This document shows, piece by piece, positions 55,580 through 56,234 of a DNA stretch of 64,000 bases; within the stretch, counting starts at the first letter, position 1; each line of letters starts with the position of its first letter. The stretch lies in NCBI RefSeq assembly GCF_057098645.1, contig NZ_CM169472.1. One strand, written 5' to 3'. The notes under the pieces were generated by a model. The model saw nothing but the letters and a program-made list of their open reading frames with translations. It did not search any database and was not told the DNA's origin. The position numbers were made by a program, and so were the translations under genes.

Positions 55580-55911
55580 TCATGAGTCTTTTGAATGACG
55601 TTCAGAAATTCATTGAAGCCCATCCGGGGTGTACTTCCGGAGACATTGCGGATGCTTTTGCAGGTTACTCACGGCAGCGCGTACTGCAGTCAGCAAGCAA
55701 GTTACGTCAGAGTGGGCGTGTGGCTCACCGTTGTGAAGGGGATACACGCAGACATTTCCCGCGCCTGACTGAGAGAGCGCAGGAGCCGGAACCACAACCA
55801 GTTCGTGAAACCAGACCTGTGCGCAATTTCTATGTCGGCACTAACGATTCCCGGGTGATTTTGTGCCTGACTCGCCAGGCGGAAAAACTGGTCAGGGAGA
55901 TGGCGGCATGA
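55576..55911 (+). CDS. Hypothetical phage protein
   Basis: 111-aa ORF, 4-nt overlap with the replication gene. Confidence 0.4.
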   Translation: MIMSLLNDVQKFIEAHPGCTSGDIADAFAGYSRQRVLQSASKLRQSGRVAHRCEGDTRRHFPRLTERAQEPEPQPVRETRPVRNFYVGTNDSRVILCLTRQAEKLVREMAA

Positions 55912-56234
55912 CGACGTTAACTCAATGCCAGCAGCAGGTGCTGGATATGCTGATTTCTTACCAGAAAGAACGTGGCTTCCCGCCAACCAATCAGGAGGTG
56001 GCAACCATGCTGGGATACCGTTCAGTGAATGCAGCGGTGGAGCATCTTCGCGCACTGGAGAAAAAAGGCGTCATCACGATAAAGCGTGGCGTGGCCCGGG
56101 GGATCACGCTTCATACCGCAGTGAAGGACGACGACAGCGAAGCGGTCGGTATCATCCGCGCACTGCTTGCCGGTGAGGAGAACGCCAGGCTGCGTGCAGC
56201 CCACTGGTTACATGAGAGGGGCCTGAAAGTATGA
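55908..56234 (+). CDS. LexA N-terminal DNA-binding-domain-like protein (no peptidase domain)
   Basis: ORF 55863..56234; from MTTLTQCQQQVLDMLISYQKERGFPPTNQEVATMLGYRSVNAAVEHLRALEKKGVITIKRGVARGITL… resembles the LexA winged-helix domain. Confidence 0.55.
   Translation: MTTLTQCQQQVLDMLISYQKERGFPPTNQEVATMLGYRSVNAAVEHLRALEKKGVITIKRGVARGITLHTAVKDDDSEAVGIIRALLAGEENARLRAAHWLHERGLKV

What the first reader, a model, noticed from the sequence alone, without database searches (positions are those of the whole stretch)
55908..56234. Stand-alone LexA DNA-binding-domain-like protein in the replication/nin region
Seen in sequence: a 108-aa ORF resembling the LexA N-terminal winged helix (…VLDMLISYQKERGFPPTNQEVATMLGYRSVNAAVEHLRALEKKGVITIKRGVARGITL…) with no S24 peptidase domain. 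Established knowledge: LexA binds SOS boxes through this domain and needs the C-terminal domain for RecA-stimulated self-cleavage. Inference: a non-cleavable LexA-like binder could modulate host SOS genes or prophage induction, or regulate phage promoters.
Basis: partly seen in the sequence, partly recalled or inferred. Interest (0 to 1): 0.45.

Follow-up and report, generated by a model that had tools for sequence, protein, structure and literature searches.

The report
Prophage-encoded truncated LexA look-alike
A small prophage gene encodes the DNA-binding half of the bacterial SOS repressor LexA without the self-cleaving half; the gene is real, conserved and very common in E. coli prophages, is already annotated as such, and its function has never been tested.

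Summary
ORF 55908..56234 (+) encodes 108 aa. Residues 1-68 are a full-length LexA_DNA_bind winged helix (Pfam E=3.8e-19; about 51% identity and 1.0-1.3 A rmsd to E. coli LexA NTD). There is no S24 peptidase domain. It is not a bare domain: a conserved two-helix C-terminal tail (about residues 74-102) follows the winged helix.

The gene lies in the rightward early operon of an SfV-like lambdoid prophage. Its start and stop overlap a truncated PerC-family gene and rusA. That synteny holds in homologues down to 44% identity across Enterobacterales.

The gene occurs in 2232 of 5426 complete E. coli genomes and in SfV, SfII, SfIV, cdtI, mEp460 and Stx2 phages. RefSeq already names it 'LexA family transcriptional regulator'. 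I found no functional study of it.

Four of the five LexA DNA-contact residues are kept (S39, N41, A42, E45; E44 is V).

Best explanation (inferred, not shown): a RecA-insensitive LexA-type DNA binder made during lytic growth, probably recognising CTGT-type SOS boxes.

- For: a strong SOS box sits in the same prophage at 60504..60523.
- Against: dimerisation could not be established, and some family members have altered recognition helices.

Verdict: an ordinary, already annotated gene of unknown function, of moderate interest.

The parts
55908..56234 (+). Gene for the 108-aa LexA-DBD-like protein (identical to RefSeq WP_000210154.1, 'LexA family transcriptional regulator'; same family as SfV orf42 and mEp460_046)
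   Evidence: ORF and sequence. Pfam PF01726 E=3.8e-19. PHROG 362 E=1.6e-59. RefSeq annotation at 100% identity. There are 56 DNA alleles among 85 copies, with 48 synonymous versus 12 nonsynonymous codon variants.
55908..56111 (+). Residues 1-68: LexA-type winged helix-turn-helix (helices 6-22, 28-35, 40-52; wing strands 56-58 and 66-68). The recognition helix reads S39-V-N41-A42-A-V44-E45-H.
   Evidence: AlphaFold model with pLDDT about 80-89 over this part. Foldseek hits 1lea and 3jso at rmsd 1.0-1.3 A and about 51% identity. HMMER alignment to E. coli LexA.
56127..56213 (+). Residues 74-102: conserved two-helix tail (helices 74-87 and 93-102; consensus EAVxxIRALLAGExxARxRAxxWLxxRG). It is a candidate dimerisation or partner-binding element; this is inferred.
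   Evidence: Helices predicted with pLDDT about 86-87. The pattern, including A97 and L101, is conserved down to 40-50% identity. A linked-dimer AlphaFold run was inconclusive (pTM 0.35).
55894..55899 (+). Shine-Dalgarno AGGGAG, 8 nt upstream of the ATG
   Evidence: Read directly from the sequence.
55576..55911 (+). Upstream gene: PerC-family (SfV orf40/yfdN-like) gene truncated after residue 104. Its TGA overlaps the ATG of the LexA-like gene (ATGA). The dam gene found here in SfV, mEp460 and Stx2 phages is deleted.
   Evidence: Alignment with SfV, SfIV and Stx2a_1447 orthologues. RefSeq marks it as a pseudogene. PHROG 23071/1324.
56231..56620 (+). rusA (Holliday-junction resolvase). Its start codon overlaps the stop of the LexA-like gene (ATGA). 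This adjacency is conserved in all diverged loci examined.
   Evidence: PHROG 34 E=5.3e-57. Synteny in L004-L008 and L010.
60504..60523 (.). TACTGTAAAAATAAACAGTG: the only strong SOS-box-like site in the prophage, inside codons 3-9 of the late-region DNA methyltransferase gene (60496..61548). It is a candidate operator for host LexA and/or the LexA-like protein; the link to this gene is inferred, not shown.
   Evidence: Exact CTGT-N8-ACAG match. Sequence context. PWM score 22.6, within the range of genuine E. coli boxes. Kept in diverged MTase alleles.

Best explanation
The gene encodes a sequence-specific DNA-binding regulator derived from LexA: a LexA N-terminal winged helix plus a novel two-helix tail, with no S24 protease domain. 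It therefore cannot be inactivated by RecA*-stimulated self-cleavage.

The gene sits in the pR-driven early operon and is translationally coupled to its neighbours. The protein would therefore be made only after infection or induction, when host LexA is being destroyed.

The most likely mechanism is that it occupies CTGT-type (SOS-box-like) operators as a non-cleavable LexA surrogate. That would re-impose repression on LexA-controlled promoters of the host, of the phage itself (for example the box at 60504..60523) and of co-resident elements while RecA* is still active.

Shown:
- domain identity and fold
- absence of the protease domain
- conservation and purifying selection
- operon position
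- retention of four of the five LexA DNA-contact residues
- presence of SOS boxes in these phages

Inferred:
- DNA binding itself
- SOS-box specificity
- dimerisation through the tail
- repression rather than activation
- any physiological effect
For: - Domain: full-length LexA_DNA_bind match. E. coli LexA NTD hits at E about 1e-15 with about 51% identity. The model superposes on the LexA-DNA complex chains 3jso at 1.0-1.1 A.
- Recognition helix: RSVNAAVEHL versus LexA RSPNAAEEHL. It keeps S39, N41, A42 and E45 of the contact set S39/N41/A42/E44/E45 listed in PMC3091678. K53, R64, G65 and I66 are invariant in the family.
- No protease domain: the NCBIfam lexA model aligns only to 1-91/203 and scores below its cut-off.
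- Selection: 48 synonymous versus 12 nonsynonymous codon variants among 56 alleles. The tail and the synteny (O-like, optionally Dam, LexA-like, RusA, DUF968, Q) are conserved to 44-52% identity in Cronobacter, Enterobacter and other hosts.
- Operon position: no promoter-like or convincing terminator-like site lies directly around the gene, and it has ATGA overlaps at both ends.
- SOS boxes in these phages: a strong box in the window at 60504. In relatives, strong boxes lie inside the cI gene, at the MTase start and upstream of a KilA-N gene.
- Co-occurrence in the phage collection: the MTase-box module accompanies the LexA-like gene in about 27 of 29 records, and the cI-with-box allele in 13 of 13.
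- Own knowledge, not tested here: the isolated LexA N-terminal fragment retains operator binding, and cells must degrade it for full SOS induction.
Against: - No experiment exists for this family. Seven literature searches aimed at it (minus the one that found GIL01) turned up nothing on it.
- LexA needs its C-terminal domain to dimerise, and dimerisation of this protein is unproven. The linker-fused dimer model had pTM 0.35.
- E44 is never retained in the family. Some tail-bearing members change other contact residues: P0086 SVNTIAGH, P0172 SSNAVLLH, P0191 SQNTVFIH, P0230 SPYAAYEH. That is unexpected if the common target were the invariant enterobacterial SOS box.
- Diverged loci L004-L007 and L010 have no SOS box within about 6 kb.
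- The co-occurrence of boxes with the gene is confounded by physical linkage and shared ancestry of near-identical prophages.
- The one characterised analogue, GIL01 gp6, evolved a different site and activates transcription (PMC6182141).
Confidence: 0.45

Rival explanations
1. It is a phage-specific transcription factor that has drifted away from the SOS box. Like GIL01 gp6, it binds its own site(s) in the phage genome and activates or times phage genes (for example late or nin-region genes), with no effect on the host SOS regulon.
For: The GIL01 gp6 precedent: a truncated LexA homologue that binds GaCACAnnTGTGaC and activates the late promoter P3 (PMC6182141). E44 is replaced throughout the family, and the recognition helix varies in several lineages. 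Stand-alone LexA-DBD proteins are common in unrelated phages.
Against: No BLASTP similarity to gp6. No gp6-type site at a relevant place in the window. No enriched alternative CTGT palindrome spacing in the prophage. The E. coli clade keeps S39/N41/A42/E45 exactly. There is no adjacent intergenic region that could hold an operator of its own.
Confidence: 0.25
2. It is an accessory of the replication/recombination module and uses the winged helix mainly for protein or structure-specific DNA contacts. For example, it might assist the DnaD-like O protein or target RusA, rather than regulate transcription.
For: It always lies between the O-like initiator (Phg_2220_C) and rusA, with overlapping start and stop codons. 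In L005 and mEp390 it directly follows the initiator, where lambda has P. These modules have no recognisable helicase loader. There are weak winged-helix hits to O-like and DnaD_N profiles (PHROG 678 E=0.0087; DnaD_N E=0.23).
Against: Those hits are generic winged-helix similarity, many orders of magnitude weaker than the LexA match. The conserved residues are the base-contacting residues of a sequence-specific repressor. PerC-like and dam genes can be inserted between the initiator and this gene.
Confidence: 0.12
3. It is an SOS-box competitor without repressor activity. It binds half-sites as a monomer, displaces or excludes residual LexA, and thereby prolongs or enhances expression of LexA-controlled genes.
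For: The LexA-like recognition helix is retained. No confident dimer was predicted.
Against: Any protein bound over a promoter-overlapping SOS box would be expected to repress. The conserved hydrophobic two-helix tail suggests oligomerisation or partner binding. No data favour derepression.
Confidence: 0.06

Closest known systems
E. coli LexA (SOS repressor; PDB 1LEA, 1JHH, 3JSO)
   Same: N-terminal winged helix: about 51% identity over 68 residues and 1.0-1.3 A rmsd. Helix-3 residues S39, N41, A42 and E45 and wing residues R64-G65-I66 are retained. Sequence similarity runs on into the LexA linker and cleavage-site region (alignment to LexA residue 86).
   Different: There is no S24 domain, no Ser119/Lys156 dyad, and therefore no self-cleavage and no LexA-type dimer interface. 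E44 is V and R28 is N. A 40-residue helical tail is unique to the phage family. It is encoded in a prophage early operon rather than as an autoregulated chromosomal gene.
GIL01 (Bacillus thuringiensis tectivirus) gp6, a truncated LexA homologue that activates late promoter P3 (PMC6182141)
   Same: A phage-encoded protein consisting essentially of a LexA DNA-binding domain without the protease domain, encoded among early genes next to replication functions.
   Different: No detectable pairwise sequence similarity. gp6 is 66 aa with no helical tail. gp6 recognises GaCACAnnTGTGaC, which is absent from relevant positions here. gp6 resembles its Gram-positive host's LexA (44% identity, per the paper), whereas this protein resembles enterobacterial LexA. 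It is an independent lineage.
Non-inducible LexA mutants (lexA Ind-) and the LexA N-terminal cleavage fragment (own knowledge)
   Same: LexA DNA-binding activity that RecA* cannot remove. This is the behaviour predicted for this protein.
   Different: Those are laboratory alleles or transient degradation intermediates of the host protein. This is a selected, stable, phage-borne gene with an added C-terminal element.
PHROG 362 / RefSeq 'LexA family transcriptional regulator' (SfV orf42, mEp460_046, cdtI, SfII, SfIV, Stx2a/Stx2c phage orthologues)
   Same: It is a member: E=1.6e-59 over the whole profile, 96-100% identical orthologues and the same gene neighbourhood.
   Different: Nothing of substance differs. 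In this copy the upstream dam gene and the 3' part of the PerC-like gene are deleted.

Membership tests
LexA proper (NCBIfam TIGR00498 equivalog, SOS repressor) | N-terminal LexA-type winged-helix DNA-binding domain | tested here: met
   Pfam PF01726 E=3.8e-19, model 1-65/65. Foldseek hits 1lea and 3jso at rmsd 1.0-1.3 A.
LexA proper (NCBIfam TIGR00498 equivalog, SOS repressor) | C-terminal S24 peptidase/dimerisation domain with the Ser-Lys dyad | tested here: not met
   The protein ends at residue 108. No Peptidase_S24 hit. TIGR00498 aligns only to positions 1-91 of 203. The next ORF is rusA.
LexA proper (NCBIfam TIGR00498 equivalog, SOS repressor) | Whole-protein score above the curated cut-off | tested here: not met
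   70.5 bits against a cut-off of 110.95.
LexA proper (NCBIfam TIGR00498 equivalog, SOS repressor) | Conserved Ala-Gly self-cleavage site | tested here: not met
   A88-G89 aligns with LexA A84-G85 in this copy. Homologues read ANEE, VGEE, ERES, TRKE or DDQP at this position, and there is no catalytic domain.
LexA proper (NCBIfam TIGR00498 equivalog, SOS repressor) | Binds CTGT-N8-ACAG SOS boxes | not testable with these tools
   Indirect evidence only: four of the five helix-3 contact residues are retained (PMC3091678), and an SOS box is present at 60504..60523.
Pfam LexA_DNA_bind (PF01726) domain family | Significant full-length match to the domain profile | tested here: met
   68.7 bits, E=3.8e-19, residues 1-65 against model 1-65/65.
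PHROG 362 (phage 'transcriptional repressor', LexA-DBD plus tail) | Full-length profile match and conserved synteny upstream of rusA | tested here: met
   E=1.6e-59 over 1-106/106. Synteny in SfV, mEp460, SfIV, Stx2a_1447, mEp390 and L004-L008.
GIL01 gp6-type late-gene activators | Sequence relationship to gp6 | tested here: not met
   BLASTP found no alignment with E<=100.
GIL01 gp6-type late-gene activators | gp6 palindrome GaCACAnnTGTGaC overlapping a late promoter | tested here: not met
   Only two one-mismatch matches in 64 kb (2.1 expected by chance). One lies outside the prophage (29499) and the other inside the dCTP deaminase gene (46580); neither is near the Q/late region.
GIL01 gp6-type late-gene activators | Activates transcription | not testable with these tools
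   No data.
Known anti-phage defence systems (PADLOC) | Match to a defence-system protein model | tested here: not met
   Only a weak HTH-level hit to a CARF3 model (E=3.6e-4, 18 bits).

The most novel reading that the evidence does not exclude
The protein is a phage-borne, RecA-proof 'SOS off-switch'. Made from the early lytic operon, it would dimerise through its helical tail. It would then re-occupy SOS boxes that host LexA has vacated: host SOS promoters, LexA-controlled antirepressor or colicin genes of competing elements, and the intragenic boxes these phages carry in cI and in the late methyltransferase gene. This would reshape the SOS response in induced cells. Because the gene is in about 41% of complete E. 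coli genomes and in Stx2 phages, it could affect Stx-phage induction, SOS mutagenesis and inter-prophage competition. The tight coupling to rusA might compensate for re-repressed, SOS-controlled ruvAB.
Probability: 0.2. Interest if true: 0.65.

Novelty: new member of a known kind. Interest (0 to 1): 0.35.

Why it matters
If the protein does bind SOS boxes, a very common prophage gene would give induced cells a LexA activity that RecA cannot remove. The gene is in 2232 of 5426 complete E. coli genomes and in Shigella serotype-converting and Stx2 phages. Such an activity could affect SOS mutagenesis, antibiotic responses, Shiga-toxin phage induction and competition between co-resident prophages. 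It would also be a second, independently evolved example, after GIL01 gp6, of phages re-using the LexA DNA-binding domain. If it binds some other site, it is one more phage-specific regulator. Either way the test is simple (EMSA plus an SOS reporter) and has apparently not been done.

Tried and rejected
- **Longer GTG start at 55863.** Rejected: homologues start at MTTLT, and an SD sequence precedes 55908.
- **Opposite-strand ORF 55702..56055.** Treated as spurious, because homology and the synonymous/nonsynonymous pattern support the + strand gene.
- **Decoy substrate cleaved in trans at A88-G89.** This copy aligns with the LexA cleavage site, but the Ala-Gly is not conserved in the family, so the idea was rejected.
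- **Orthology with GIL01 gp6.** Rejected: no sequence similarity and no gp6 site.
- **Dimer prediction.** I fused two copies with a 30-residue Gly-Ser linker. pTM was 0.35 and mean pLDDT 65.7, which is uninformative.
- **Alternative operators.** I counted CTGT/ACAG pairs in all orientations at spacings 0-20 in the prophage and looked for inverted repeats in the cI-cro and Q-MTase intergenic regions. Nothing convincing appeared beyond the canonical box at 60504.
- **Wider locus search.** The search for related loci failed with the broad alignment. With a narrower one it returned only 99-100% identical E. coli prophages.
- **Literature.** Seven searches aimed at this protein family (of nine run in all) found only GIL01 gp6 and unrelated uses of 'LexA family' for cI-type repressors.
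- **Defence-system membership.** None.

Full report

Yes. A longer GTG-started reading (55863) exists. All homologues begin at MT(T)LT, and an AGGGAG Shine-Dalgarno lies 8 nt upstream of 55908, so 55908 is the start. The ATG overlaps the stop of the upstream ORF (ATGA, 55908-55911). The stop overlaps the ATG of rusA (ATGA, 56231-56234).

The similarity to LexA is far beyond chance:
- Pfam LexA_DNA_bind: E=3.8e-19, covering the whole 65-position model.
- E. coli LexA structures 1LEA, 1JHH and 3JSO: E about 1e-15.
- PHROG 362 'transcriptional repressor': E=1.6e-59.

An AlphaFold model (mean pLDDT 82) has the expected three helices and two-stranded wing in residues 1-68. It superposes on the LexA N-terminal domain, including the DNA-bound form 3JSO, at 1.0-1.3 A with about 51% identity.

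There is no S24 peptidase domain. None is detected by Pfam. The NCBIfam lexA equivalog aligns only to its positions 1-91 of 203 and scores 70.5 bits against a cut-off of 110.95. The next gene is rusA.

**2. What else is in the protein?**

It is not a bare domain. Residues about 74-102 are predicted as two helices (74-87 and 93-102, pLDDT about 86-87).

This tail, with consensus EAVxxIRALLAGExxARxRAxxWLxxRG and invariant A97 and L101, is conserved in homologues of only 40-53% identity. Their sources name them from Cronobacter, Enterobacter and Cedecea.

The first part of the tail still aligns with the LexA linker and cleavage-site region (LexA residues up to 86). That suggests descent from a full-length lexA truncated just past the cleavage site. 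This copy reads A88-G89 at the position aligned with LexA A84-G85. The pair is not conserved in the family (ANEE, VGEE, ERES and others), so I do not regard it as a cleavage site.

A hydrophobic two-helix hairpin of this size would normally pack either on the winged helix or against a second subunit. Dimerisation is therefore a reasonable inference. My attempt to test it, with two copies joined by a Gly-Ser linker and a paired alignment, gave pTM 0.35 and is uninformative.

**3. Context**

The window is E. coli chromosome carrying an SfV-like lambdoid prophage. Its gene order is:
- integrase, 44853..46091
- S24-type repressor, 52142..52816 (-)
- cro-like gene and CII-like gene
- O-like initiator, 54761..55579
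- a PerC-family gene truncated after residue 104, 55576..55911
- the LexA-like gene
- rusA
- a KilA-N gene
- a DUF968/HNH gene
- Q, 58460..59212
- a lipoprotein gene
- a DNA methyltransferase, 60496..61548
- lysis genes

Relative to SfV, mEp460 and Stx2a_1447, the dam gene and the 3' third of the PerC-like gene are deleted here. RefSeq marks the remnant as a pseudogene.

No promoter-like site lies immediately upstream, and no convincing + strand terminator lies between the replication genes and Q. With the overlapping stop and start codons, this places the gene in the pR early transcript. The protein should therefore be made during lytic growth, not in the lysogen. This is an inference.

**4. 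Distribution and selection**

The gene is present at 95% or higher identity in 2232 of 5426 complete E. coli genomes, with up to 4 copies per genome. It is also in about 50 deposited phages, including SfV (orf42), SfII, SfIV, cdtI, mEp460 and many Stx2a, Stx2c and Stx2k phages. Depositors call it 'LexA-like protein', 'LexA DNA binding domain protein' or, wrongly, 'LexA repressor'. RefSeq names the identical protein WP_000210154.1 'LexA family transcriptional regulator'.

Among 85 copies I found 56 DNA alleles with 48 synonymous and 12 nonsynonymous codon variants. This indicates purifying selection. One caveat applies: the 80 IMG/VR loci were chosen by protein identity, which biases the count.

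In homologues of 44-52% identity the neighbourhood is the same: S24 repressor, cro, CII-like, O-like (Phg_2220_C), optionally Dam, LexA_DNA_bind, RusA, Ant or KilA-N, DUF968 and Q. The overlap with rusA is kept as well.

**5. What might it bind?**

The LexA residues reported to contact DNA are S39, N41, A42, E44 and E45, all in helix 3 (PMC3091678). This protein reads S-V-N-A-A-V-E-H, against LexA S-P-N-A-A-E-E-H. Four of the five are therefore kept, and E44 is V. Wing residues R64-G65-I66 and K53 are invariant in the family. On this basis, recognition of CTGT half-sites is plausible.

The window contains three exact CTGT-N8-ACAG matches (0.71 expected by chance). Only one is strong: TACTGTAAAAATAAACAGTG at 60504..60523. 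It scores 22.6 with a position weight matrix that I built from E. coli SOS boxes recalled from the literature (training range 13-27). It lies in codons 3-9 of the late-region methyltransferase gene and is kept in diverged alleles of that gene.

Related phages carry further strong boxes:
- Inside the cI ORF, at the same codon position in alleles only 70% identical (mEp460, Stx2a_1447, L008).
- About 100 bp upstream of a KilA-N gene in SfIV.

Across 80 IMG/VR loci (1.24 Mb), strong boxes fall almost only at two places: the cI gene and the methyltransferase start. In the phage collection, the methyltransferase-box module occurs with the LexA-like gene in about 27 of 29 records, and the cI-with-box allele in 13 of 13.

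This fits a functional link, but it is not independent evidence. The elements lie within a few kb of each other in closely related prophages, and host LexA is the default ligand of any SOS box.

Three further points count against a universal SOS-box target:
- The diverged loci L004-L007 and mEp390 have no box within about 6 kb.
- Four tail-bearing lineages have altered contact residues.
- E44 is never retained in the family.

**6. Most likely mechanism and rivals**

I commit to a RecA-insensitive LexA-type DNA-binding regulator that is expressed early in lytic growth. It most probably occupies SOS-box-like operators and represses them while host LexA is being cleaved (confidence about 0.45 for the SOS-box version, and much higher for 'sequence-specific DNA-binding regulator that cannot be cleaved').

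Established knowledge makes this plausible, though it was not tested here. The isolated LexA N-terminal fragment still binds operators, and cells have to degrade it to achieve full SOS induction.

The rivals are:
- A phage-specific regulator with its own site, possibly an activator like GIL01 gp6 (0.25).
- An accessory of the replication/recombination module, given its fixed place between the initiator and rusA (0.12).
- A non-repressing competitor of LexA (0.06).

**7. Comparison with what is known**

It works like, and is derived from, LexA, but it fails the defining tests for LexA membership: no S24 domain, no conserved cleavage site, and a score below the curated cut-off.

It is a member of Pfam LexA_DNA_bind and of PHROG 362.

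The only characterised phage protein of this kind that I found is GIL01 gp6, a 66-aa truncated LexA homologue that binds GaCACAnnTGTGaC and activates the late promoter (PMC6182141). The present protein shows no pairwise similarity to gp6, and no gp6-type site occurs at a relevant position. It has an extra tail and is much closer to enterobacterial LexA. It is therefore an independent lineage of the same general kind.

A fold search against viral models shows that short LexA-DBD proteins are widespread in phages.

**8. Novelty and verdict**

The sequence and its annotation are already public. What remains unknown is the function. I rate it a new (uncharacterised) member of a known kind, with interest 0.35.

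The most novel reading not excluded is a phage 'SOS off-switch' acting on host, competitor and intragenic phage SOS boxes. I give it about 0.2 probability. It would deserve about 0.65 interest, because of the gene's prevalence in E. coli and its presence in Stx phages.

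Noticed in passing
window 60504..60523 (inside MTase gene 60496..61548): A near-consensus SOS box (TACTGTAAAAATAAACAGTG) lies within codons 3-9 of the late-region type II DNA methyltransferase gene. It is retained in diverged alleles of that gene (Stx2a_1447 L011:15934 TACTGTAAAAATATCCAGTT; L023:13920 TACTGTAAATATAAACAGTG). This suggests selection on the DNA site, and the reason for an intragenic LexA site there is unexplained.
   Followed up: partly
L003 (mEp460) 31970..31989; L011 (Stx2a_1447) 6408..6427; L008 836..855: Related phages carry a strong SOS box inside the cI (S24 repressor) coding sequence, in the linker between the HTH and the S24 domain. 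It sits at the same codon position in alleles only 70% identical, while the surrounding linker residues diverge. The window's own cI (52142..52816) lacks it. In the phage collection this cI allele was found only in phages that also have the LexA-like gene (13 of 13).
   Followed up: partly
L009 (SfIV) 8640..8659: An SOS box (TACTGTATTTATGAACAGTA) lies in the intergenic region about 100 bp upstream of the KilA-N-type regulator gene, just downstream of the LexA-like gene and a disrupted rusA. It looks like a LexA-controlled antirepressor-type module.
   Followed up: no
window 55576..55911: The gene upstream of the LexA-like gene is a PerC-family (SfV orf40/yfdN) gene truncated after residue 104. 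The dam methylase gene present at this position in SfV, mEp460 and Stx2 phages has been deleted. RefSeq annotates the remnant as a pseudogene.
   Followed up: yes
window 46244..47851 (-): An anti-phage dCTP deaminase (NCBIfam NF041025, 464.7 bits against a cut-off of 400; PADLOC dCTPase E=1.9e-164) is encoded next to the prophage integrase (44853..46091).
   Followed up: partly
proteins P0133, P0148, P0151, P0152 and others: The representative protein library contains proteins with two tandem LexA_DNA_bind stretches (for example P0133, 222 aa). These may be covalent pseudo-dimers of the LexA winged helix. Their origin and context were not examined.
   Followed up: no
L087 12708..12727: In one related prophage an SOS-box-like site (TACTGTTTATGCATACAGCA) lies directly upstream of a reverse-strand ORF that starts with a lipoprotein-like signal peptide (MMNKLARLLLTASSIAPVC...), in the late-region 'moron' slot.
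   Followed up: no
window 53802..53817: A weak CTGT-N8-ACAG match (GGCTGTAAGTAACCACAGAG, PWM score below 12) lies inside ORF 53699..54535 and is identical in SfV and mEp460. It is probably chance.
   Followed up: partly
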